In this document: positions 8,198 through 20,220 of the stretch, one piece after another
Layout of the letters: each line of letters begins with the position of its first letter
Numbering within the stretch: position 1 is the first letter of the stretch
DNA from: Pseudomonadales bacterium
Lineage (GTDB): Bacteria; Pseudomonadota; Gammaproteobacteria; Pseudomonadales; Azotimanducaceae
Length of the DNA stretch: 47,890 nt
Direction: 5' to 3'
NCBI GenBank assembly: GCA_021295875.1
Contig: JAGWBN010000005.1
Location: 2,776 to 50,665, forward strand
Made by a program: the position numbers and the translations under genes
The notes under the pieces: generated by a model
What the model was told of the DNA's origin: nothing
Databases searched by the model: none
Seen by the model: only the letters and a program-made list of their open reading frames with translations

Positions 8198-8272
8198 TGG
8201 GGCGTCGCCAAGCGGTAAGGCACCGGGTTTTGATCCCGGCATACGCAGGTTCGAATCCTGCCGCCCCAGCCA
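8198..8272 (+). tRNA. tRNA-Gln (anticodon UUG)
   Basis: 75-nt cloverleaf. Acceptor TGGGGCG/CGCCCCA; anticodon stem CCGGG/CCCGG with loop TTTTGAT; T-arm GCAGG-TTCGAAT-CCTGC; encoded CCA. Confidence 0.9.
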
Positions 8273-9013: not shown

Positions 9014-9628
9014 GTGTCCATCCGCCTGATTGTCGGCCTCGGCAATCCCGGACCACGCTATGCGCGCACCCGTCACAACGTCGGGGCCGTCTGGCTTGAG
9101 TCGCTGGCCGCCCGCTTCGGCATTGGGTTGGCGGAGCAGGCCAGGTTCAGGGGACTGATCGGCTGCGGCGACATCCTCGGTCGCCAAGTCCGCCTGCTTT
9201 TTCCGACCACGTACGTCAACCTGTCGGGCGACGCCGTCGGTGCGGTGGCCCGCTTCTACAAGATCGAGTCCCGAGGAATTCTCGTCGCCTACGACGAGGT
9301 CGCCTTCCCGCCCGGCACCTGCCGTCTCAAGACGGGCGGTGGCCACAACGGCCACAACGGCCTGAAGAGCGTCATCGCGGCGCTCGGCAACGACCGGGAT
9401 TTCGCCCGCCTGCGTATCGGCGTCGGCCATCCGGGTGCCGCCGACGACATGGTGGCCTACCTCACGGGGGTCCGCATGCCGACGGCGGAGCGGGAAGTGG
9501 TCGACCGCGGATCGTCCGTCAGCGACGAGGTCCTGGCTCTCGTCCTCGACGGCGAGTTGCAGCGGGCGATGAACGTCTTCCACGCGCCCCCCGCCGAGGC
9601 GAACGGCCCGGAATCAACGGAGCGATAG
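9014..9628 (+). CDS. pth: peptidyl-tRNA hydrolase
   Basis: [20 protein letters not shown] and GHNGLKS motifs. GTG start. Confidence 0.9.
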
Positions 9629-10719
9629 TGGGATTCAACTGCGGCATCGTCGGTCTGCCCAACGTCGGCAAGTCCACCCTGTTCAACGCCATGACCCAGG
9701 CATCGGTGGACGCGGAGAACTTCCCGTTCTGCACCATCGAGCCGAATACCGGCGTCGTTCCCGTGCCCGATCAGCGGCTCGCCCGCATCGCCGAGATCGT
9801 GCGTCCGGCGAAGGTGGTGCCGAGCGCCATGGAGTTCGTCGACATCGCGGGTCTGGTGTCGGGCGCCGCCGAGGGCGAGGGTCTCGGCAACCGGTTCCTG
9901 GCGCACATCCGCGAGACCGACGCCATCGCCCACGTGGTGCGCTGTTTCGTGGACGTCAACGTCGCGCACGTCTCGGGGCGGATCTCGCCCGCCGACGACA
10001 TCGACGTGATCGACACCGAGTTGGCACTGGCCGACCTCGAGACCGCCGACCGCGTCCACGACCGCAACCGGCGCATGGCCAATGCCGGCGACAAGGACGC
10101 CCGCCGCCTGGTCGATGTTCTCGATCATGTCCGGGACGGCCTCGGCCGGGGCGAGCCGGTTCGAACCCTCGGCCTCGATGCCAACGAGACTGAACTCCTG
10201 GGTGAGTGCCAGTTCCTGACGGCCAAGCCGGTGATGTACATCGCCAACGTGGACGAGGACGGCTTCACCAACAATCCCGCTCTGGACGAAGTCGCGGCGA
10301 TCGCCGAGCATCAGGAAGCTGCGGTGGTTCCGGTGTGCGCCAAGATCGAGGCCGAAATCAGCGAACTCGACGCCGAAGAGCGGGAGGAGTTCCTGCGTGA
10401 TCTGGGGGTCGACGAGCCGGGTCTCGACCGCGTGATCCGCGCCGGCTACCGGTTGCTCGGGCTGCATCACTATTTCACGGCGGGACCCAAGGAAGCGCGT
10501 GCCTGGACCGTTCCCATCGGCACACCCGCCTCACGGGCGGCGGGCGTAATCCACACCGACTTCGAGCGCGGCTTCATCCGCGCGGAGGTGATTTGCTACG
10601 AGGACTTCATCTCCCACGACGGTGAGGTCGGCGCCCGGGAAGCCGGCCGGCGTCGCCTCGAAGGCAAGGACTACATCGTCCAGGACGGCGACGTCGTCCA
10701 CTTCCGCTTCAACGTGTAG
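9628..10719 (+). CDS. ychF: ribosome-binding ATPase YchF (Obg-like)
   Basis: [17 protein letters not shown]-loop, FCTIEPN, and a C-terminal TGS-like end [11 protein letters not shown]. The GTG start overlaps the pth stop. Confidence 0.92.
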
Positions 10720-10767
10720 CCGTCGCCGCCATGCCGCGCGTCTTTGCTTCGACGTGTAGCGCATAAG

Positions 10768-10786
10768 GGCGACGCTTGTCGTCGCC
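10768..10786. terminator. short GC hairpin between convergent ychF and cassette gene C
   Basis: GGCGACG-cttgt-CGTCGCC with no U-tract, so terminator function is uncertain. Confidence 0.35.
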
Positions 10787-10867
10787 GACACCTGCAACGC
10801 GCAGCCCGCTTCGAACGAACGTGGGCGACAGACAACAAGCGTGGACGCTACGACTGCGCAGGGTTCA

Positions 10868-12169
10868 CTAGGCGGCCTCGACCATTTGCTCGAAGGTCTG
10901 CTGGTCGATGACATTGTGGTTGACGAGAGTGGTCTGGACTAGGCGTTCGGAGACGTGGAAGTGACGTGCTGCGGCGTGGATGTCGTCGTCGCCGGGATCG
11001 TCGTTGGGAATATAGGCTCGGAGGTCGTCGAAGGGGCACAGGAACTCCTGTGCGAAGGCGCGCTGGAATTTCTGGCGACCGGACTTGGCCGTTGAAAGGG
11101 GCCCGAGGGCGTCGTTGCCGGACCAGATGATGTCGCCAAGGCTACGGCAGAGTTCGAAGCGCCGGCTGTGTGACCAGCGCGACCTGAGTGCCAGTTTGTT
11201 GACGTCCTCTGACGCGGTTCGTAGGCGAAGCCCGTAGGGGATCGAGCGCGGAGGGGCGCGCTGAGTGGCAAGGCGGTCGGCGTTTATGTCGAGGACTTCG
11301 CTGAGGCGCGGGTTTCGGATCGGCCCGTTCGGGAGGCGCAGACGTCGCCGTAGTTCGCGAGCAGCGACAACTGCCAGTCTCCAGGGGGGGTGGAGTGGCC
11401 AGTGGTCCAAGTCGATGCCGCTGATGGTCGATGGGATGCGAAGGACGACGCGGGAAGCTTCGGCGGCGACTAGGGCGTCCTGGAGTGCGGTGGTCGAGTG
11501 TTCGCCCTGTTGGGCGAGAGCGGCTTCCTCGATGCCATCTATGCCGAATCGCTCAGTCATGGCTTCGTAGTCGGACACCAGGCGTTCCGGCGCGGCGTCG
11601 GGGTCGAAGCCGAGCAGGGCCTCAAGGCGGCGCCAGCGACTGGTGGCAGGGTCGGCCCGCTCCGCGAGCAGACTTCGGTACTCGTGGTCGAGTCCGTCGC
11701 AGTCGGACCCGGCGTCCTGAAGGACCTGGTTGATGAAGGTGTCAATCGCGGTTTCCGCAGTTGATGAGGACACGTACTCGAGCGCGGGTTCCGCGAGAAA
11801 GCGTAGGGAACGTTGAAGGTTGTGGACGTCCGCGTGGACCATGATGGCGCATCGGGAACCTTCGCCCCATAACGAGACGTTAGGCCAAGGGTAGCCGGCA
11901 CCGACGGACGGTAGATGATGCGCGATGCGCCAGTGGGCGGGGAAATCGCGTTGCGGAGGTGGAGGCTCGCAACGGATGCGCCACCAGTTGTCGACAAACC
12001 AGAACGCGAGCGGAAGCGGGGGTGCTTCGAGGCAGCGGTCGGGCTGGTCGCTGCCGCGGCGGATCAGTCGGGTGAGCCAGATGTCGCCGAGACGGACGGC
12101 CAGTCGCCGCGTGATCGGATCGCCACCGCCGGATCGGGCTTCGACGAGAATCTCGAAACGGTCGGTCAT
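10868..12169 (-). CDS. hypothetical protein: unknown N-terminal domain plus C-terminal ImmA/IrrE (peptidase M78)-like domain with the HExxH motif destroyed
   Basis: Protein-like composition. The C-terminal third follows the M78 layout, but RFELCRSLGD replaces RFtlaHElgH. It is followed by QKFQRAFAQEFLCPFDDL and AAARHFHVSERLVQTTL. Start set at ATG 12169 (MTDRFEIL), which forms an ATGA overlap with the upstream gene's stop. ATG 12193 is the alternative. Confidence 0.75.
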   Translation of the reverse strand: MTDRFEILVEARSGGGDPITRRLAVRLGDIWLTRLIRRGSDQPDRCLEAPPLPLAFWFVDNWWRIRCEPPPPQRDFPAHWRIAHHLPSVGAGYPWPNVSLWGEGSRCAIMVHADVHNLQRSLRFLAEPALEYVSSSTAETAIDTFINQVLQDAGSDCDGLDHEYRSLLAERADPATSRWRRLEALLGFDPDAAPERLVSDYEAMTERFGIDGIEEAALAQQGEHSTTALQDALVAAEASRVVLRIPSTISGIDLDHWPLHPPWRLAVVAARELRRRLRLPNGPIRNPRLSEVLDINADRLATQRAPPRSIPYGLRLRTASEDVNKLALRSRWSHSRRFELCRSLGDIIWSGNDALGPLSTAKSGRQKFQRAFAQEFLCPFDDLRAYIPNDDPGDDDIHAAARHFHVSERLVQTTLVNHNVIDQQTFEQMVEAA

Positions 12170-12606
12170 CGGAAGTCGTAGCGGAGCCGGCATGCGGCAC
12201 CGGCGGAGCGGTCGGCGGGTGTCCCTTGGTCATCCGCCCAACCGGCGAATCGGTCGAACACAAGGCGTGCGATGGCTTCTTCGGGGAGGAGGGGGTAGCC
12301 GTGGAACTGGGCAGTCTCGCGGTTAGTCTCCCGTGCCTCGAATATCCAGCCGTCGTCTGCGACGGTCCAGAGGATGCGTGCTGTGTGGCCGATGAGTCCG
12401 GCGCGGATGCCGCGTTGGATTGGCGCGGGAATCTCGGGGACTTGGGCGGGTTGAAAGTCGGTTTCGTCGCACAGGGTGGCGTCGTCCCGGTCGCCGTTGA
12501 AAGGTTCGAGACCGAACAGATGCGGGTGGCGCTTGTGTTTCGAACTGCCCTCGTACCACACGGTGTCTAGTAGCCGTTCGATCAGGTCTTCGGCGGGATC
12601 GGGCAT
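12166..12606 (-). CDS. hypothetical small protein (about 146 aa), family not recognised
   Basis: The ORF has balanced composition from MPDPAEDLIERLLDTVWYEGSSKHKRHP ... FHGYPLLPEEAI. The 45 codons upstream (to 12741) are Arg-rich and look non-coding, so start ATG 12606 is preferred. Its stop overlaps the start of the next gene. Confidence 0.6.
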   Translation of the reverse strand: MPDPAEDLIERLLDTVWYEGSSKHKRHPHLFGLEPFNGDRDDATLCDETDFQPAQVPEIPAPIQRGIRAGLIGHTARILWTVADDGWIFEARETNRETAQFHGYPLLPEEAIARLVFDRFAGWADDQGTPADRSAGAACRLRYDFR

Positions 12607-12812
12607 TAGACGCCGTTTCTCGTTGTGGGAGCGGCGTCGGCGCGAGCGCCGACGGTTAGGCTGCGGCAAGGTCGGAGTCTCCTGTTGTCGTTCCAGTCTT
12701 ACGAGACTCCGCAGTGTGCAAAAGGCGGGGGTCGGGCGCAAGTCAAGTGGCCTACGGCGAGCCTATGGCGGTGGTTCCGACTCGTTCGCGTCAGTTGCGG
12801 ACAGCGCAAGGT

Positions 12813-13244
12813 TCATGTGGGCATGCGGAAGGCGAGCACGTTGATGCACCAGGGCGGAACCACGCCCACGTCCGGCAACGGCCCGTTGACGGCGGATCCG
12901 CGAATCCACGTCACCGCATCACCGATGCGGAAGTAGGCTTCGTCGGCGAACGCGGTGACGTAGATCTCGGCTCGATGTCCGGTGGGCGATTGTTCAGGGA
13001 AGGGAAGGATCGCTTCGAACAGCTCCGCCTCACGCGAGTGGACCTTGGATGCGGCGAGCCAGTTGAACTCGCTTGCCACGAACCACCATCCGCCGTGGTC
13101 GACCAGTTCGACGTGTCCGGCGCCCAGGACGGCCGCTCCGAAGGCCACGTTCTCAGCGATCTGCGTGCCGCCGATGCGTTCGCCCGGGAGCATCCCGGCG
13201 AGCCGCCGGCGCAGGAAGCCACGAGACTCCTCGTCGTCACTCAT
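12813..13244 (-). CDS. hypothetical protein (143 aa), family not recognised
   Basis: Balanced amino-acid composition (MSDDEESRGFLRRRLAG ... GHVELVDHGGWWFVASEFNWL ...). The overlapping plus-strand ORFs are Arg/Gly/Pro junk. It is divergent from livH across a 74-nt gap. Confidence 0.6.
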   Translation of the reverse strand: MSDDEESRGFLRRRLAGMLPGERIGGTQIAENVAFGAAVLGAGHVELVDHGGWWFVASEFNWLAASKVHSREAELFEAILPFPEQSPTGHRAEIYVTAFADEAYFRIGDAVTWIRGSAVNGPLPDVGVVPPWCINVLAFRMPT

Positions 13245-13318
13245 GGATGGGTCTGGATCCTATGCGTCGGTGCGGGAAACTCCGTATCATCGCCGCGCCG
13301 ACTTGAGGACGGCAACCG

Positions 13319-14188
13319 TTGGAAATTCTGCAACTGCTGATCATCGGCGTGTCCCAGGGGTGCGTCTACGGCCTGATCGCGCTCGGCTTCGTGCTGATCT
13401 ACAAGGCGACCGAGATGGTCAACTTCGCCCAGGGCGACATGATGATGCTCGGCGCGTTCGTGGCGTTCAGTCTCGCCAATCTCGCCGGGTTGCCGTTCGT
13501 CCTCGTGTTCGCCGCGACCCTGCTGATCATGGCCGTGTTCGGCATGGCGCTGGAGCGCGGCCTGTTGCGGTCCATGATCGGCGAGCCGCCGTTCGCCGTG
13601 CTGATGCTGACCATCGGCCTCGGTTTCGTGATCCGCGCGGTCGCCGGGGCCATCTGGGGGAATCAGCCGCGTGCCCTGGACTCGCCCTTCGCCGGCGGGA
13701 TCGTCGAGATCCAGGGCCTCATCATTGGCCATGAGAACATCGCCATCGTCGTTGGTACCGCGTTGCTGTGCGCTGCGTTGTACCTGTTCTTCCGTTTCAC
13801 GCGGTTGGGCATCGCCATGCAGGCCGCATCGCAGAACCAGTTGGCGGCGTACTACCTCGGCATCCCGGTGAAACGGGTGTTCTCGCTGGTGTGGGCCATA
13901 TCCGCCGCCATCGCGGCGGCCGCCGGCATCCTGGTGGCGCCGGTGAGCCTCATCGACCCGCTCATGGGCTTCGTCGGCATCAAGGCGTTCGCCGCCGCCA
14001 TCGTGGGCGGTTTCGGCAGCCTGCCGGGCGCCATCGTCGGCGGTTTGGTGATCGGCATCGCGGAGCAGTTCGTCTATCTGTTCCTGCCGCCCGGCGTGTC
14101 GGAGGTCAGCGCTTTCGTCCTGCTCCTGGCCATGCTCATCGTCCGACCGGAAGGCATCTTCGCCACTTTGCAGCAGAAGAAGGTCTGA
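13319..14188 (+). CDS. livH: branched-chain amino acid-type ABC transporter permease (LivH family)
   Basis: LQLLIIGVSQGCVYGLIALGFVLIYKATEMVNFAQGDMMMLGAF is a typical LivH N-terminus. TTG start is preceded by GAGGA. Confidence 0.9.
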   Translation: MEILQLLIIGVSQGCVYGLIALGFVLIYKATEMVNFAQGDMMMLGAFVAFSLANLAGLPFVLVFAATLLIMAVFGMALERGLLRSMIGEPPFAVLMLTIGLGFVIRAVAGAIWGNQPRALDSPFAGGIVEIQGLIIGHENIAIVVGTALLCAALYLFFRFTRLGIAMQAASQNQLAAYYLGIPVKRVFSLVWAISAAIAAAAGILVAPVSLIDPLMGFVGIKAFAAAIVGGFGSLPGAIVGGLVIGIAEQFVYLFLPPGVSEVSAFVLLLAMLIVRPEGIFATLQQKKV

Positions 14189-14198
14189 GAGAGGGCTG

Positions 14199-15271
14199 AT
14201 GCGCTTCGTACTCAAGACCAACTACGGACAGGATGTGAACCTGTTCCTGCACGGCGGACAGCGGTTCTGGTACGGCCTGCTTCTCGCGGTGGTGCTGTTG
14301 GCGCCGCTCGTCCTCGACACCTTCTACCTGGGGGAGTTCGCCCTGGTGTTCATTTGGGCGGTCGCTGGCACCGGGCTGATGATCCTGGTCGGCTACACCG
14401 GCCTCGTGAGTCTCGGCCACGCGGCGTTTCTCGCCATCGGCGCGTACGCGCACACCTATTTTCTTACCCGGGGCGTTCCGTTCGTCCTGTCGGTGCCGCT
14501 GGCGACGCTGTTCTGCGCGGTGGTCGGCTACGCCGTGGGGATGCCGGCGCTGCGCATGACCGGCATCTACTTCGCCATCGCGACGCTGGCGTTCGAGCGC
14601 ATCTCGGCTTTCGTGATCGAACATTGGGAAGGGGTCACCGGCGGTCACTTCGGTATCCGCGTGCCCGATGCGACCGTCCTCGGGGTCAACATCGACGGTC
14701 CGGTCGGGTTCTACTACATCTGTTTCGGCGTGCTCGCGGTCAGCCTGCTCGCGACCATGAACCTGCTCCGCTCGCCCACGGGTCGGGCGTTCATCGCGGT
14801 GCGTGACTCGGAGGTGTCGGCGGAAAGCATGGGCATCAACCTCGCACGTACCAAGTGCACGGCGTTCGCCCTGTCGGCGGCGTTCACCGGCTTGGCGGGA
14901 AGCCTGTTCGCGCACAAGATCGGCTACCTGGCGCCGGACGCCTTTACCGTGCAGACCTCCATCCAACTCCTGCTGATGGTGGTCGTGGGTGGCCTGGGCT
15001 CGTTGCAGGGCATCGTCTACGGGGCCATCTTCCTGGGTCTCCTGCCCCAGGCGATCGCCTTCGCGCGGGACGTGCTGCCGCAGCGGATCGCCGAGATCCC
15101 CGGGCTGGAACCCGGCATCTTCGGCCTGATCCTGATCCTCTTCCTGGTCTTCGAACCCCTCGGCATCCACGGCCGCTGGGTGAAGATCCGGACCTGGTTC
15201 GACGAGTTCCCGCTCTACCGCAAGGCGACCTACAAGCGTCAGCGCAGCTACCTGCGCACGGAACGGGTCCG

Positions 15272-15275
<4 letters not shown>
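14199..15275 (+). CDS. livM: branched-chain amino acid-type ABC transporter permease (LivM family)
   Basis: 358-aa polytopic protein with GYTGLVSLGHAAFLAIGAY. Its stop overlaps the livG ATG (ATGA). Confidence 0.88.
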
Positions 15276-16081
<806 letters not shown>

Positions 16082-16083
16082 CG

Positions 16084-16848
16084 GTGTCGCTCCTTACCCT
16101 GCGCAACATCGAGACCTACTACGGACCGATCATGGCGATCCGGGGTGTCTCGATCGAAGTCGCGGAACACGACGTGGTGACGATTCTCGGTGCCAACGGG
16201 GCCGGCAAGACGACGGTGCTGAAGACGATATGCGGCGCCATGGAACCGCAGAAGGGCAGCGTCACCTTCGCCGACGAGGACATCACCAACCGTGATCCCG
16301 ATCGGGTCGCGCGGCTCGGCATCGGGCACGTTCCGGAGGGCAGGGAGGTGTTTCCCTTCCTCACGGTGGACGAGAACCTGCGCATGGGCGCCTTCTCTCG
16401 CAAAGACGGCAGCATCGGCGCCGACCTCGAGCTGGTGTACGGCTATTTCGCGACGCTGGCCGACAACCGCAAGCTGGCCGCCGGTTTCCTGTCCGGCGGA
16501 CAGCAGCAGATGCTCGCCATCGGCCGCGCGCTGATGCTGCGTCCGAAGCTGATGCTGCTCGACGAGCCCTCGCTCGGCCTGTCGCCGATCCTGGTCCACG
16601 AGATCGCGGAGATCGTCACGCGGCTCAACGAGGAACAGCGGATGACCATCCTGCTGGTGGAGCAGAATGCGCAGATGGCCCTCGACCTCGGCGACTACGG
16701 CTACGTCATGGAGAACGGCCGCATCGTCATGGAGGACACCTGCGAGCGGCTGAAGAACGCCACGGACATCAAGGAGTTCTATCTCGGCATGAAGGACCAG
16801 GGCGTGCGCGGCAGGCGGCGCTGGAAGCAGAGGAAGACGTGGCGATGA
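16084..16848 (+). CDS. livF: ABC transporter ATP-binding protein (LivF family)
   Basis: Walker A GANGAGKTTVLK, signature LSGGQQQMLAIGRAL, Walker B LMLLDEPS. Start is GTG 16084, or TTG 16078. Confidence 0.88.
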   Translation: MSLLTLRNIETYYGPIMAIRGVSIEVAEHDVVTILGANGAGKTTVLKTICGAMEPQKGSVTFADEDITNRDPDRVARLGIGHVPEGREVFPFLTVDENLRMGAFSRKDGSIGADLELVYGYFATLADNRKLAAGFLSGGQQQMLAIGRALMLRPKLMLLDEPSLGLSPILVHEIAEIVTRLNEEQRMTILLVEQNAQMALDLGDYGYVMENGRIVMEDTCERLKNATDIKEFYLGMKDQGVRGRRRWKQRKTWR

Positions 16849-16909
16849 CATGCGACCGCTCCGCGGTCGCCCGAGATTTCGCTGGGCGCCAATCGAGGAG
16901 CGATGTGTC

Positions 16910-18733
16910 ATGAGTGGCACGGTGATCGACGGCTGCGACACGGTGCCGTCGCTGTTCCGCCAACGCGTGGCCGAACTCGGGGCCAAGGTCGCCCTGCGCG
17001 AGAAGGACTTCGGCATCTGGAACGAGTACACCTGGGCCGACTACGGTGAACACGCACGGCTTGCGGGATTGGGTCTGAAGGCGTTGGGTCTGGAGCGCGG
17101 CGACGCCTGCTCCATCGCCTCCGAGGTCAACAAGGAGTGGATGTTCGCGGACCTGGGCGTCATCTGCACGGGGGGGATCACCAACGGGGTCTATCCGACG
17201 GATGCGCCGAACCAGGTCGAGTACCTCATCAACGACAGCGGCACGCGGTTCTATTTCGCCGAGGACGAGGAGCAGCTCGACAAGGTGCTGGAGGTGCGTG
17301 AACGCACGCCCACGCTGGAGAAGATCGTCATCTTCGACATGGAGGGACTGCGCAGCCTCGACGATCCCATGTGCCTGTCCTTCGAGGCGTTGCAGGACTT
17401 GGGCCGTGACTACGGCGAGGCGAATCCGGCGGCCTGGGACGAGGAGATCGACAAGGCGCGCCCGGACGATCTCATGATCCTCACCTACACCTCGGGCACC
17501 ACCGGTCCGCCGAAAGGTGCGATGATCAGCCAAGCCAACATGCTGTTCATGATGAAAACGGTGCAGGACTGCTACGGCGTCTTCGACACTGATGAACAGC
17601 TCGGCTTTCTACCGCTGGCGCACGTGGCCGGGCGCATGTTCTACACCTTCTCGGCCATCGAGTCGCGCTCGGTCGTGAACCTGGTGGAGAGTCTCGAGAC
17701 CATCAACCACGATCAGCAGGAGGTCTCCCCCACCATCCACTTCGCCGTGCCCCGGGTGTGGGAGAAGCAGTTCTCCACGGTGCAGATCAAGCTCAAGGAA
17801 GGCACGCCGCTGGGCCGTGTGGCCTATCGGCTGGCCCTGGCCCTCGGCGAGCGCCGCGCGGCCTACCTGAAGGCGCGCAGGCGGGTGCCGGTGCCGCTCG
17901 CGGCCGCCTTCTTCCTGGCGGAAGTCCTGATCCTGAAGAACATCCGCCGCCTGCTCGGCATCGACAAGTGCCGCTGGCTGTCCACCGCCGCCGCGCCCAT
18001 CGCTCCGGACCTCATCGACTGGTACTGGGCGCTCGGCAAGCCCATGTACGAGCTCTACGGCCAGACCGAGTGCACCGGGATCGCCACCGCGAACCTCTCC
18101 GACGACTTCCGCATCGGCAGCGTCGGCAAGGCGGCCGAGGGGGTCGAAGTGGCCTTGTCCGAGGAAAACGAAATCGTCATCAGGAGTCCCGGCGTCATCC
18201 GGGGCTACTGGAACAAGCCGGAGAAGACCGCCGACACCATCCGCCAGGGCTGGCTGCACACCGGCGACGTGGGCCGCATCGACGACGACGGCTTCGTCTA
18301 CATCGTCGACCGGATGAACGACATCATCATCACCGCCGGGGGCAAGAACATCACCCCGAGCGAGATCGAGAACCAGTTGAAGTTCTCCCCCTACATCACC
18401 GACGCCGTGGTCGTCGGCGACCGGCATCCGTACCTCACGTGCCTCGTCATGATCGACGACGAGAACGTCACCAAGTTCGCCCAGGACAACGACGTGCCGT
18501 TCACCAACTACACGAGCCTGTGCCACACGCGGGAGGTCGAGGACCTGATCTGGGGCGAGATCGAGACGGTCAACGTTCGCTTCGCCCAGGTGGAGACCAT
18601 CAAGCGCTTCCGCCTGATCGACCAGTTGCTCGACCCCGAGGACGACGAACTGACGCCGACCCAGAAGCTCAAGCGCAAGGTGGTGAACGAGAAGTATGCG
18701 GACTTGATCGACAGCATGTATCGTGGCGGCTGA
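16910..18733 (+). CDS. AMP-dependent acyl-CoA synthetase (long-chain-fatty-acid-CoA ligase-like)
   Basis: AMP-binding motif LTYTSGTTGPPKGAMIS, YGQTE, GWLHTGDVG, and C-terminal PTQKLKRK. ATG 16910 lies 9 nt after GAGGAG. Confidence 0.88.
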   Translation: MSGTVIDGCDTVPSLFRQRVAELGAKVALREKDFGIWNEYTWADYGEHARLAGLGLKALGLERGDACSIASEVNKEWMFADLGVICTGGITNGVYPTDAPNQVEYLINDSGTRFYFAEDEEQLDKVLEVRERTPTLEKIVIFDMEGLRSLDDPMCLSFEALQDLGRDYGEANPAAWDEEIDKARPDDLMILTYTSGTTGPPKGAMISQANMLFMMKTVQDCYGVFDTDEQLGFLPLAHVAGRMFYTFSAIESRSVVNLVESLETINHDQQEVSPTIHFAVPRVWEKQFSTVQIKLKEGTPLGRVAYRLALALGERRAAYLKARRRVPVPLAAAFFLAEVLILKNIRRLLGIDKCRWLSTAAAPIAPDLIDWYWALGKPMYELYGQTECTGIATANLSDDFRIGSVGKAAEGVEVALSEENEIVIRSPGVIRGYWNKPEKTADTIRQGWLHTGDVGRIDDDGFVYIVDRMNDIIITAGGKNITPSEIENQLKFSPYITDAVVVGDRHPYLTCLVMIDDENVTKFAQDNDVPFTNYTSLCHTREVEDLIWGEIETVNVRFAQVETIKRFRLIDQLLDPEDDELTPTQKLKRKVVNEKYADLIDSMYRGG

Positions 18734-18768
18734 ACGGACCGTGATAGGCGGAGTGGAACCATGAAGCC

Positions 18769-20001
18769 ATGAAGAGAGTTGTGTTGATTGCCGCGGGGCT
18801 CGTCCTCGCCGCCTGCGGACCGGGCGAGTCCGGCGTCGACGACGCGCCGACGGGACCCGCCGACGCCGGCGAGACGGAAGTCGCCGCGGCCAACGAAGTC
18901 AACGGCGTCACCGACACCGAGGTCGTGCTGGGCACCCACACCGACCTGTCGGGCGCCATCGCCATCTGGGGAGTCGGTGTCTTGAACGGCGCCCGCATGC
19001 GCTTCGAAGAGGTGAACGAGGCCGGCGGCGTCCACGGGCGCACCATCCGCTACATCGCCGAGGACACCCAGTACCAGATCCCCCGGGCGATTTCCGCCGC
19101 CAACAAGCTGATCCACCGGGACAAGATCTTTGCCATGCTGATGGCGGTCGGCACGCCGACCAACAACGCCGTGATGCAGGAACAGTTCGAAGCCGGTGTA
19201 CCCAACATCTTTCCGGGCAGCGGCGCCCGCTCCATGGTCGAGCCGTTCAACAAGCTGATGTTCTCCCAGCACGGCACCTACTACGACGAGATCCGGGCCG
19301 CGGTGAAGTACTTCGCGGAGAAGGAAGGCCGGACGACTCCCTGCGTCATGTATCTCAACAACGAGTACGGTCTCGAGATCGTCGAGGGCGCCCAGGACCA
19401 GGCGGCCGAAATGGGCCTGGAAATCGCCGAGATGGCCGCCTACAAGATCACCGACAGCGAGTTCACCGCGCCCGTCATCCGACTGCGCGGCGCCGGCTGC
19501 AATCTCGTCCTCATGGGCTCGGTGCACCGGGACACGATCCTCATCCTGGAAGCCGCCCGCAAGCTTGGTTGGGACGACGTCGCCTGGGTCGGCAACAACG
19601 CCGCCTACGGGCAGGTGATCGCCGACCAGGAGAGCGGTTCCGGCGAGGGCTACTACGCGTTCGTGCACATGGCCAAGATCTACGAGGACGACGAGACGCT
19701 GACCGAGGTACAGCGCGACTGGATGCGACGCTACCGAGAGAAGTACGGTGAGGAGGCGGGGCTACCGGCCATGGAGGGCTATCGCGGCGCCGACCTCGTC
19801 GTGGTCGCGCTCGAACGGGCCGGCCGCGACCTCACCCGCGAGAAGTTCGTCGCGGCCATGGAGTCGATCAACGACTACACCGACATCTTCGGCTACAAGG
19901 TCGTCTTCGGCCCCGACGACCACAAGGGCGTTTCCGAGTCTGCGCTGTCGGTTGTGCGCAATGGCCGGTGGGTGACCCTCGATACCTCGATCAGCTATTG
20001 A
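18769..20001 (+). CDS. ABC transporter substrate-binding lipoprotein (LivK / type I periplasmic binding fold)
   Basis: Lipoprotein signal MKRVVLIAAGLVLAAC. The body is typical of Leu/Ile/Val-binding-protein-family solute receptors. It is the last gene of the transporter operon. Confidence 0.85.
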   Translation: MKRVVLIAAGLVLAACGPGESGVDDAPTGPADAGETEVAAANEVNGVTDTEVVLGTHTDLSGAIAIWGVGVLNGARMRFEEVNEAGGVHGRTIRYIAEDTQYQIPRAISAANKLIHRDKIFAMLMAVGTPTNNAVMQEQFEAGVPNIFPGSGARSMVEPFNKLMFSQHGTYYDEIRAAVKYFAEKEGRTTPCVMYLNNEYGLEIVEGAQDQAAEMGLEIAEMAAYKITDSEFTAPVIRLRGAGCNLVLMGSVHRDTILILEAARKLGWDDVAWVGNNAAYGQVIADQESGSGEGYYAFVHMAKIYEDDETLTEVQRDWMRRYREKYGEEAGLPAMEGYRGADLVVVALERAGRDLTREKFVAAMESINDYTDIFGYKVVFGPDDHKGVSESALSVVRNGRWVTLDTSISY

Positions 20002-20143: not shown

Positions 20144-20220
20144 TGGTAGCTGCGGTTGGACTCGAACCAACGACTCCAGCATTATGAATGCTGTGCTCTA
20201 ACCGACTGAGCTACGCAGCC
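20144..20220 (-). tRNA. tRNA-Met (anticodon CAU), elongator type
   Basis: 77-nt cloverleaf on the minus strand. Acceptor GGCTGCG/CGCAGCT (G1-U72); D-arm TAGCTCAGTCGGTTAGAGCA; anticodon stem CAGCA/TGCTG with loop TTCATAA; T-arm GTTGG-TTCGAGT-CCAAC; encoded CCA. The D and anticodon arms closely resemble E. coli metT. A lysidine-type tRNA-Ile2 cannot be strictly excluded. Confidence 0.88.

What the first reader, a model, noticed from the sequence alone, without database searches (positions are those of the whole stretch)
10868..13244. Uncharacterised three-gene cassette in reverse orientation between ychF and the liv operon
The conserved rplY-pth-ychF block and the liv-type transporter operon are both on the plus strand. 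Three minus-strand genes sit between them, and I cannot assign any of them to a family:
- A: 143 aa, 13244 to 12813.
- B: about 146 aa, 12606 to 12166. It has an SSKHKRHP block near the N-terminus and FHGYP near the C-terminus.
- C: 433 aa, 12169 to 10868.

The B stop and C start overlap as ATGA, so B and C are almost certainly co-translated. C ends in an ImmA/IrrE-like domain, a module typical of toxin-antitoxin, anti-repressor and phage-defence sensor circuits. A small basic protein coupled to a larger sensor-like protein at the edge of a housekeeping block fits a toxin/immunity or defence-type module. The function is open. There is no integrase and no compositional shift.
Basis: partly seen in the sequence, partly recalled or inferred. 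Interest (0 to 1): 0.68.

Follow-up and report, generated by a model that had tools for sequence, protein, structure and literature searches.

The report
Mobile two-gene toxin-antitoxin-like module
Two of the three genes form a widespread, uncharacterised mobile pair: a small protein with no recognisable fold, always coupled to a larger protein that carries a catalytically dead ImmA/IrrE protease domain; the pair behaves like a toxin-antitoxin or phage-defence module, and the third gene is an unrelated resident neighbour.

Summary
The three minus-strand ORFs are real, but they are not one cassette.

**A (12813-13244)** is a resident, lineage-restricted orphan gene. In related genomes it lies directly beside ychF with nothing in between.

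**B-C (about 10868-12751)** is a 1.88 kb insertion. In those same relatives it sits elsewhere, for example beside Kiwa, DUF3800, AbiE, RM and other TA genes.

- **B start.** B starts at TTG 12669, giving 167 aa rather than 146.
- **Pairing.** B and C are coupled by an ATGA overlap. They are paired in 66 of 72 informative genome loci and 77 of 80 metagenome loci, across many phyla and on some plasmids.
- **Annotation.** Neither protein has a Pfam or NCBIfam match, and every database name found is "hypothetical".
- **B.** It models confidently, but Foldseek finds no match in PDB or BFVD. H45, K46, C67, W101 and E111 are invariant and H123-G-Y-P is nearly so, which suggests an enzyme.
- **C.** Its C-terminal part has the ImmA/IrrE (M78) fold plus an HTH. 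The HExxH motif is replaced by RxxGD in all 133 relatives examined, so C is a pseudo-protease.
- **Decay.** B is lost or broken more often than C.

Best reading (confidence about 0.5): a RosmerTA-like toxin (B) with an antitoxin/sensor (C). Toxicity and defence are untested.

The parts
10868..12169 (-). Gene C, 433 aa: the large partner, read here as an antitoxin/sensor. Model pLDDT 88.6, pTM 0.89.
   Evidence: ORF; more than 437 homologues, none with a Pfam domain; model; dN/dS 0.13-0.24.
11765..12169 (-). C N-terminal beta-rich domain (about aa 1-135). It carries the near-invariant motif FWxxDNWWR[LI]RWEP...W[RE]xxH...G.G..WP. Inferred to bind B.
   Evidence: Alignment A1; column frequencies in 133 C-like proteins; only unreliable fold hits (Whirly; CdiI at probability 0.47).
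10871..11323 (-). C C-terminal region (about aa 283-433): ImmA/IrrE (Peptidase_M78) fold followed by an HTH-like segment. Catalytically dead.
   Evidence: Foldseek hits to CapP 7t5t (E 6e-3, probability 1.00), 6cyy/6cz6, IrrE 3dti and PprI 8slm; Pfam PF06114 in 11 of 16 family members' C-terminal segments, though not the window's own; weak PADLOC RmrA and CapP hits; HTH-like match to Lrs14 6cmv, E 0.025.
11132..11164 (-). Motif RRFELCRSLGD, which aligns to CapP MRFTQAHELGH. His1 becomes R342, the catalytic Glu becomes S343, and His2 becomes D346.
   Evidence: HMM alignment to 7t5t; translation; none of 133 family members has HExxH, and R and F are near-invariant.
11033..11077 (-). Motif RQKFQRAFAQEFLCP, the counterpart of the M78 'E.A..FA..LLMP' motif.
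12166..12669 (-). Gene B, 167 aa from TTG 12669: the small partner, read here as an effector/toxin. Model pLDDT 83.8, pTM 0.77, with no fold match.
   Evidence: ORF and start; 98 close homologues; 460 clusters at 50% identity by profile search; model; best Foldseek E-value 0.87 in PDB and 0.31 in BFVD; dN/dS 0.11-0.22.
12595..12669 (-). B N-terminal basic tail, predicted disordered (LPQPNRRRSRRRRSHNEKRRL...). The R.SDN.KRRL motif is conserved.
   Evidence: Alignments A2 and A4; pLDDT 44-59 for residues 1-20.
12523..12546 (-). B motif SSKHKRHP. H45 and K46 are invariant across the whole superfamily.
12292..12306 (-). B motif FHGYP (H123 G124 Y125 P126, near-invariant). It lies on the third strand of the beta-meander, after the invariant E111.
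12166..12169 (-). ATGA overlap of the B stop and C start (translational coupling).
   Evidence: a 4-nt overlap in 47 of 65 genome loci, and a 4- or 8-nt overlap in 55 of 76 metagenome loci.
12670..12751 (-). Leader of about 80 nt that travels with B-C. It has the conserved block CTTGCA...GCACACTG (a likely promoter, unverified) and an AGGAG Shine-Dalgarno sequence.
   Evidence: Nucleotide homology to B-C copies in other contexts starts at 12744-12751 and ends exactly at 10868; alignment A12; the promoter scan found no consensus site.

Best explanation
B-C is a self-contained, horizontally mobile two-gene module of about 1.88 kb (leader + B + C). It inserted between ychF and the resident gene A.

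**Proposed mechanism**
- It works like a RosmerTA-type toxin-antitoxin or abortive-infection pair.
- B is a small enzyme-like effector whose unchecked activity harms the cell. Its fold has no counterpart in PDB or BFVD. The putative active site uses H45-K46, C67-D68, E111 and H123-G-Y-P.
- C is made in fixed ratio with B through translational coupling and neutralises B, probably through its conserved N-terminal domain.
- The C-terminal ImmA/IrrE-like domain plus HTH of C has lost the zinc-protease site. It would therefore act as a non-proteolytic sensor or DNA-binding regulator, and a trigger such as phage infection or DNA damage would release B.

**Shown**
- Gene structure and coupling.
- Obligate B-C pairing.
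- Mobility of the pair and independence from A.
- M78 fold with HExxH replaced by RxxGD.
- No fold match for B.
- Purifying selection on both genes.

**Inferred**
- Which partner is toxic.
- Physical binding between B and C.
- The nature of the trigger.
- A role in defence.
For: **Pairing**
- B lies directly upstream of C on the same strand in 66 of 72 informative genome loci.
- In a distant B subfamily the same holds in 77 of 80 metagenome loci; the other 3 are cut by contig ends.
- The stop/start overlap is conserved.

**Mobility**
- In two relatives with genomes of 5.5 and 5.8 Mb, A abuts ychF. In the same genomes B-C lies hundreds of kb or more away: beside SocA/Panacea, PIN and Schlafen-like genes in one, and beside Kiwa, DUF3800, HATPase_c_3 and resolvase genes in the other.
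- Nucleotide homology delimits the unit to about 12751-10868.
- 265 loci were found in GTDB species genomes. The 76 examined span Gamma-, Alpha- and Betaproteobacteria, Latescibacterota, Acidobacteriota, Desulfobacterota, Spirochaetota and Eremiobacterota, and some genomes hold two copies.
- Copies occur on conjugative and mobilizable plasmids.

**Neighbours**
- The commonest immediate-neighbour families in 25 loci are N6_Mtase, AbiEii, HTH_3, Eco57I and HipA_C. PADLOC also finds MADS, type IIG RM, GajB and HmaC.
- Other contexts hold integrase plus RelE/HTH and FitA, or AAA_15/DUF4276.

**Domain logic**
- The literature describes ImmA-domain proteins as the antitoxins of RosmerTA systems. They pair with diverse toxins that often have no known domain, and 58% of pairs are toxin-first (PMC10440598; PMC2701414).

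**Polarity**
- B is split, truncated or absent beside an intact C in about 10 loci: L017, L020, L023, L034, L046, L084, L043, L033, L039 and L051.
- C is disrupted beside an intact B in only 2 loci (L024, L022). In both cases another intact C exists in the same genome or locus.

**Enzyme-like B**
- H, K, C, W and E are invariant across 460 clusters.
Against: - No experiment has been done. Toxicity, neutralisation and defence are all inferred.
- B matches no known toxin family or fold, so its activity is unknown.
- The B domain was not seen at the C-terminus of any polymorphic toxin.
- Two loci keep an intact B next to a frameshifted C.
- Defence and TA neighbours are frequent in one half of the sampled loci, but rare in the other 26 loci, where neighbours are mostly housekeeping genes. 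No matched genomic control was run.
- PADLOC recognises neither protein at a significant level: C against RmrA gives E 0.014.
- No homologue was found in 50,697 phage records.
- The N-terminal domain of C is itself so conserved that it could be the catalytic part.
Confidence: 0.5

Rival explanations
1. Reverse polarity. C is the effector: its highly conserved N-terminal domain is the catalytic part and the pseudo-M78/HTH part is a sensor. B is the small upstream antitoxin or regulator, and its arginine-rich tail binds nucleic acid for autoregulation.
For: - In most type II TA pairs the small upstream gene is the antitoxin, a point also made in PMC10440598.
- B has a disordered basic N-terminal tail.
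- The N-terminal domain of C has many invariant W, R, E, H and D residues.
Against: - An intact C occurs without B, or beside a broken B, in about 10 loci. There are also tandem arrays of C paralogues. That is hard to reconcile with C being a toxin that needs B.
- In described systems the ImmA-like proteins are the antitoxins.
- B has an enzyme-like set of invariant residues (H, K, C, E, H) rather than a known DNA-binding fold.
Confidence: 0.2
2. The pair is neither a toxin module nor a defence module. It is a mobile regulatory or stress-response pair, in which C is a ligand-sensing transcription factor of the PrpR/IrrE type and B is an accessory enzyme or co-regulator.
For: - C resembles the M. 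tuberculosis PrpR-type regulator (6cyy, 6cz6; probability 0.96), which uses the same fold without proteolysis (my knowledge). C also ends in an HTH-like segment.
- Half of the sampled loci have ordinary metabolic neighbours.
- Makarova et al. 2009 note that Xre-COG2856 pairs might act as generic regulators.
Against: - No conserved third or target gene accompanies the pair.
- The context differs even between close relatives.
- Multiple copies, pseudogenised copies and plasmid carriage fit a selfish or defensive element better.
Confidence: 0.2
3. One reading: A, B and C together form a three-gene cassette.
For: - The three genes share a strand and lie close together in the window and in same-species metagenome contigs.
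- A could be co-transcribed with B-C here, because only 143 nt separate them and no terminator was found.
Against: - A is absent within 10 kb of C in all 76 loci from other species.
- A sits next to ychF without B-C in L003 and L006, and next to unrelated genes in L004.
- The homology of the mobile unit stops about 60 nt before A.
Confidence: 0.03

Closest known systems
RosmerTA (RmrT/RmrA) anti-phage toxin-antitoxin systems, and the wider Xre-COG2856 (ImmA/IrrE) TA-like modules
   Same: - A two-gene operon in which a small upstream protein of no known family is coupled to a larger protein with an ImmA/IrrE (M78) fold domain and an HTH.
- Toxin-first order is common in RosmerTA.
- Patchy, mobile distribution, often beside other defence or TA genes.
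   Different: - C lacks the HExxH zinc site (RxxGD instead) in every relative examined.
- C has a large unique N-terminal and helical region of about 280 aa instead of a short N-terminal Xre HTH.
- The window's C reaches no Pfam threshold. PADLOC RmrA gives only E 0.014.
- B belongs to no described RmrT family.
CapP (CBASS-associated protease) and IrrE/PprI
   Same: These are the best structural matches to the C-terminal part of C. They share the RF..A[H/R]xLG[H/D] helix and the FA..LL.P motif, followed by an HTH-like segment.
   Different: - CapP and IrrE are active zinc proteases that cleave an Xre/DdrO-type repressor after sensing DNA damage (my knowledge). C cannot be one.
- No cognate repressor gene lies next to C.
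- The partner gene B is unrelated to CapH or DdrO.
M. tuberculosis PrpR-type regulators (PDB 6cyy/6cz6/6cyj)
   Same: The same fold is used non-proteolytically, in a protein that also has DNA-binding capacity (the function is from my knowledge of the depositors' paper).
   Different: PrpR regulates adjacent metabolic genes and has no coupled small partner. C has no conserved neighbouring target genes.

Membership tests
ImmA/IrrE (Peptidase_M78, COG2856) metallopeptidases | HExxH zinc-binding and catalytic motif | tested here: not met
   The motif aligns to R342-S-L-G-D346. None of 133 C-like proteins contains HExxH.
ImmA/IrrE (Peptidase_M78, COG2856) metallopeptidases | M78 fold and sequence homology | tested here: met
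   Foldseek hits CapP 7t5t at probability 1.00 (E 6e-3), plus IrrE and PprI. PF06114 is hit by 11 of 16 family members' C-terminal segments, best E 1.2e-5, although the window's own segment is below threshold.
RosmerTA | RmrA antitoxin with an active ImmA-type protease domain, usually with an N-terminal HTH | tested here: not met
   The protease site is absent. PADLOC RmrA gives E 0.014, which is not significant. The HTH-like segment is C-terminal.
RosmerTA | Adjacent toxin gene whose product is neutralised by the ImmA-domain protein, with anti-phage activity | not testable with these tools
   Only genomic proxies are available: obligate pairing, the decay bias and the neighbours.
Type II toxin-antitoxin module (generic) | Two-gene operon with tight coupling, horizontal mobility, and variable presence between close relatives | tested here: met
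Type II toxin-antitoxin module (generic) | One product is toxic and the other neutralises it by direct binding | not testable with these tools
   Needs expression and interaction experiments.
Known toxin families or folds (RelE/ParE, barnase/BECR, PIN, HEPN, RES, ART, Fic/Doc, NTase and others) for B | Sequence or fold similarity | tested here: not met
   No Pfam, NCBIfam, PADLOC or PHROGs hits. The PDB profile search found nothing. Best Foldseek E-values are 0.87 in PDB and 0.31 in BFVD, with TM-scores of 0.25 or below.

The most novel reading that the evidence does not exclude
B founds a new class of enzymatic toxin with a previously unseen fold, using an H-K / C-D / E / H-G-Y-P active site. 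C is a pseudo-protease that has kept the signal-sensing scaffold of ImmA/IrrE proteins (ssDNA or DNA damage in CapP and IrrE) but releases its toxin without proteolysis. Together they would be a new, widespread abortive-infection system, spanning at least 460 50%-identity clusters and many phyla, and mechanistically distinct from RosmerTA.
Probability: 0.25. Interest if true: 0.75.

Novelty: new variant of a known kind. Interest (0 to 1): 0.55.

Why it matters
If B is toxic and C neutralises it, this would add a large and wholly unannotated family pair to the TA and defence repertoire. The evidence for its size is 460 clusters at 50% identity for B, 265 species-level genome loci for the close C subfamily, and at least 480 metagenome loci for a distant one.

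It would also supply two things of wider interest:
- an effector whose fold has no solved or viral-predicted counterpart;
- a clear case of an ImmA/IrrE protease domain turned into a non-catalytic module. That bears on how these sensor domains work in CBASS (CapP), Deinococcus (IrrE) and RosmerTA.

On the practical side, annotation pipelines currently call all of these proteins "hypothetical", and gene callers often start B 21 codons too late.

Tried and rejected
- **Family scans of A, B and C.** Pfam, NCBIfam and PHROGs found nothing for B or C (A had only a phrog_9730 hit at E 0.27). PADLOC gave only two weak hits, both for C.
- **PDB sequence and profile searches for A, B and C.** No meaningful hits.
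- **Foldseek of the B model against PDB and BFVD.** No match.
- **Pfam on distant and longer B-family members, looking for informative fusions.** Only one TPR-B protein turned up, possibly a gene-call fusion.
- **Search for a conserved third gene by clustering neighbouring ORFs.** The clusters were alternate-frame artefacts of high-GC DNA or lineage synteny. No shared partner emerged.
- **Target-site duplications or terminal inverted repeats around B-C.** None found. The only feature is a 15-nt near-repeat of the ychF 3' end, 40 nt apart, which does not flank the insert.
- **Leader hairpin covering the B Shine-Dalgarno sequence.** It is present in the window (-19.6 kcal/mol, z -1.7) but has no consensus structure in 8 homologous leaders, so it was dropped.
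- **Sigma-70 promoter and intrinsic terminator scan of 10650-13400.** No sites.
- **Phage records.** No C homologue.
- **My first register for the degenerate motif** (F338-E-L-C-R342 = HExxH). The HMM alignment to CapP corrected it to R342-S-L-G-D346.
- **B as a Pol-beta nucleotidyltransferase, RNase A/EndoU/barnase-like RNase or papain-like Cys-His enzyme.** I considered these from the motifs alone. None has fold support, so they remain speculation.
Full report
**1. What is in the sequence**

Between ychF (9628-10719, +) and the first liv-type permease gene (13319-14188, +) lie three minus-strand ORFs:
- A, 12813-13244, 143 aa.
- B, open from 12741 down to its stop at 12166.
- C, 10868-12169 or 12193.

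GC content is 0.647-0.652, against 0.65-0.68 in the flanks. No integrase is nearby. The B stop and C start overlap as ATGA at 12166-12169.

Several results place the start at TTG 12669 instead, giving 167 aa:
- Homologues are mostly 166-170 aa and share a conserved N-terminal extension, R.SDN.KRRL.
- In the window the aligned start codon is TTG 12669, with AGGAG 9 nt upstream.
- dN/dS computed over all 167 codons is 0.11-0.22.

For C, the 433-aa form starting at 12169 matches the length of its homologues.

**2. The three genes are not one cassette**

- A has 119 homologue clusters, all from Gammaproteobacteria or Pseudomonadales MAGs.
- In two related genomes of 5.50 and 5.78 Mb, the A homologue lies convergent to and directly beside ychF-pth-rplY. 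One of them also keeps lolB and prfA in the same arrangement as the window. Nothing lies between A and ychF.
- In those same two genomes B-C lies hundreds of kb or more away. One copy sits next to SocA/Panacea-DUF433, PIN_10-DUF5615 and a Schlafen/AlbA_2 gene. The other sits in an island with two HATPase_c_3 genes, DUF3800, Kiwa (KwaA/KwaB) and a resolvase.
- In 76 genome loci from other species that carry C, A is never within 10 kb.
- Only metagenome contigs of the window's own species repeat the A-B-C-ychF order.
- Nucleotide homology between the window and B-C copies in other contexts runs from 12744-12751 to exactly 10868. The flanks match the A and ychF genes of the relatives.

So B-C, together with an 80-nt leader, is an inserted unit of about 1.88 kb. 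A is a resident gene of unknown function. I found no target-site duplication or terminal repeats.

**3. B and C are an obligate, widespread pair**

- A profile scan of one genome per GTDB species found 265 loci encoding C relatives. The 76 examined span Pseudomonadales and Ca. Azotimanducaceae (the closest, 77-83% identity), many Alphaproteobacteria, Betaproteobacteria, Chromatiaceae, Latescibacterota, Acidobacteriota, Desulfobacterota, Spirochaetota and Eremiobacterota. Some genomes hold two copies.
- Ten of these 76 loci have no B hit at all, and four of those are cut by a contig end. Of the 72 informative loci, 66 have B directly upstream on the same strand.
- An exhaustive HMMER search with the B profile found 460 clusters at 50% identity. 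These include a distant subfamily of about 145 aa.
- A metagenome scan for that subfamily found at least 480 loci. In 77 of the 80 fetched, a full-length C-like gene follows immediately; the other three end at the contig edge.
- The stop/start overlap is 4 nt in 47 of 65 genome loci, and 4 or 8 nt in 55 of 76 metagenome loci.
- Copies occur on conjugative and mobilizable plasmids of Allorhizobium, Rhizobium, Sphingomonas and Massilia, where RefSeq calls them hypothetical proteins. None was found in phage records.
- Every database name retrieved is "hypothetical" or "uncharacterized".

**4. What C is**

The AlphaFold model is confident (pLDDT 88.6, pTM 0.89).

Foldseek against the PDB gives these matches, all to the C-terminal part:
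- CapP of Thauera (7t5t; E 6e-3, probability 1.00).
- A PrpR-type regulator of M. tuberculosis (6cyy, 6cz6, 6cyj; probability about 0.96).
- IrrE (3dti) and PprI (8slm).

Scanning only the C-terminal 160 residues of 16 family members, 11 hit Pfam Peptidase_M78, best E 1.2e-5. The window's own segment stays below threshold.

The HMM alignment to CapP places C's RRFELCRSLGD on CapP's MRFTQAHELGH:
- the first zinc histidine is R342;
- the catalytic glutamate is S343, a variable position;
- the second histidine is D346.

None of 133 C-like proteins from both subfamilies contains HExxH. The R, F and R positions and the RQKFQRAFA..L.P motif are nearly invariant. C is therefore a pseudo-protease with a re-purposed, strongly constrained site.

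The extreme C-terminus looks like an HTH (Lrs14-like 6cmv, E 0.025, plus weak Pfam HTH hits). IrrE has an HTH in the same position (my knowledge).

The N-terminal 135 residues form a beta-rich domain with the near-invariant motif FWxxDNWWRLRWEP...W..H...G.G..WP. It has no reliable structural match.

**5. What B is**

- The model is confident apart from the basic N-terminal tail (pLDDT 83.8, pTM 0.77).
- Its topology is helix, short strand, long loop, two helices, a three-stranded meander, then two helices.
- Foldseek finds nothing in the PDB (best E 0.87, TM below 0.25) or in BFVD (best E 0.31).
- Sequence profiles find nothing in the PDB.
- Close, distant and longer family members have no meaningful Pfam match.
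- Across the whole superfamily H45, K46, C67, W101 and E111 are invariant. Y39, P49, D68, G91, Y122, H123, G124, Y125 and P126 are nearly so.

A constellation of His-Lys, Cys-Asp, Glu and His on a small, well-folded protein suggests a catalytic or metal site. I could not tell which chemistry is involved, and ideas such as RNase or Cys-His hydrolase are speculation.

**6. Which partner is harmful**

In the 76 genome loci:
- B is split, truncated or displaced beside an intact C in L017, L020, L023, L034, L046, L084 and probably L043.
- B is absent beside an intact C in L033, L039 and L051.
- Some Azotimanducaceae loci carry tandem C paralogues.
- An intact B beside a frameshifted C is seen only twice (L024, L022). 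Both cases have another intact C in the same genome or locus.

This bias is what one expects if B is the toxic partner and C the protective one. It is indirect evidence, and it depends on assembly quality.

It agrees with the literature. ImmA-domain proteins are the antitoxins of RosmerTA systems and pair with diverse toxins of unknown family, and 58% of pairs are toxin-first (PMC10440598). COG2856-Xre proteins are linked to TA-like operons (PMC2701414).

**7. Neighbourhoods**

- Among the two genes on each side of B-C in 25 loci, the commonest Pfam families were N6_Mtase (5), AbiEii (4), HTH_3 (4), Eco57I (3) and HipA_C (2). PADLOC found AbiEii/AbiEi, MADS components, type IIG RM, GajB, HmaC and PDC-S11.
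- In the other 26 loci, which hold more distant homologues, neighbours were mostly ordinary metabolic genes. There was one DRT8 reverse transcriptase, one PifA-like gene and one phospholipase effector.
- Other sampled contexts include a phage integrase with RelE/HTH_3 and FitA, and AAA_15/AAA_21 with DUF4276.

The association with defence, TA and mobile genes is frequent but not universal. I did not run a matched control.

**8. Mechanism proposed**

B and C are made together from a short conserved leader. C holds B inactive, most plausibly through its N-terminal domain, which co-varies with the B subfamily. The dead ImmA/IrrE plus HTH module either senses a signal, as its active relatives do, or binds the operon's own DNA. 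Loss or conformational change of C frees B, whose enzymatic activity stops growth.

- Shown: structure of the locus, coupling, pairing, mobility, fold assignments, loss of the protease site, purifying selection.
- Inferred: toxicity, binding, trigger, defence role.

Confidence is about 0.5. The rivals are reversed polarity (0.2), a non-toxic regulatory pair (0.2), and the three-gene cassette (0.03).

**9. Comparison and novelty**

The closest known kind is RosmerTA and the Xre-COG2856 TA-like modules. This pair fails the defining feature of that family, an active HExxH protease domain. It also has a different domain layout, and its partner protein has no known fold. It is therefore best filed as a new variant of a known kind, not as a member.

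It is a good candidate for experimental work but not a startling one, because many new two-gene defence and TA systems are still being described. Interest: 0.55.

Noticed in passing
window 12813-13244 (-): Gene A belongs to a lineage-restricted orphan family: 119 clusters from Gammaproteobacteria or Pseudomonadales MAGs. Many residues are invariant (N32, H44, E46, W53, W54, S58, R91, E93, W132, C133). It has no significant Pfam, NCBIfam, PADLOC, PHROGs or PDB match. It is the conserved neighbour of ychF in relatives, and in one genome it lies between an MFS transporter gene and a histone-deacetylase-family gene.
   Followed up: partly
window 10706-10720 and 10746-10760; hairpin 10768-10787: A 15-nt near-duplicate of the ychF 3' end (GCTTCAACGTGTAGC / GCTTCGACGTGTAGC) lies 40 nt downstream of the original. 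It is followed by a GC-rich hairpin (GGCGACG-CTTG-TCGTCGCC) that resembles the REP-like hairpins in the ychF-A spacer of relative L006. It may be a remnant of local rearrangement. It does not flank the B-C insert.
   Followed up: partly
window 12679-12717 (-): Inverted repeat CGGAGTCTC...GAGACTCCG in the B leader. Its 3' arm covers the AGGAG Shine-Dalgarno sequence (-19.6 kcal/mol, z -1.7). It is not conserved in 8 homologous leaders, so it is probably incidental.
   Followed up: yes
L020, L022, L025, L033, L039, L072 (Ca. Azotimanducaceae / Pseudomonadales MAGs): Some genomes carry tandem arrays of C paralogues and C fragments, or orphan C genes without B. This resembles arrays of orphan antitoxin or immunity genes.
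   Followed up: partly
L016, L022, L025, L033, L039, L072; protein P0346: A TPR-like ORF recurs near B-C in six related loci. One database protein (574 aa) is a TPR-B fusion, which may be a gene-calling artefact.
   Followed up: no
window 8198-8272 (+) and 20144-20220 (-): tRNA-Gln(ttg) lies just upstream of rplY, and tRNA-Met(cat) lies further downstream. Neither is adjacent to the B-C insert.
   Followed up: yes
window 13319-19000 compared with L006: The region on the far side of A also varies between relatives. The window has a liv-type ABC transporter plus an AMP-binding (acyl-CoA ligase-like) gene. L006 has DctPQM and a xanthine/uracil permease between A and the shared Bax1-I gene.
   Followed up: no
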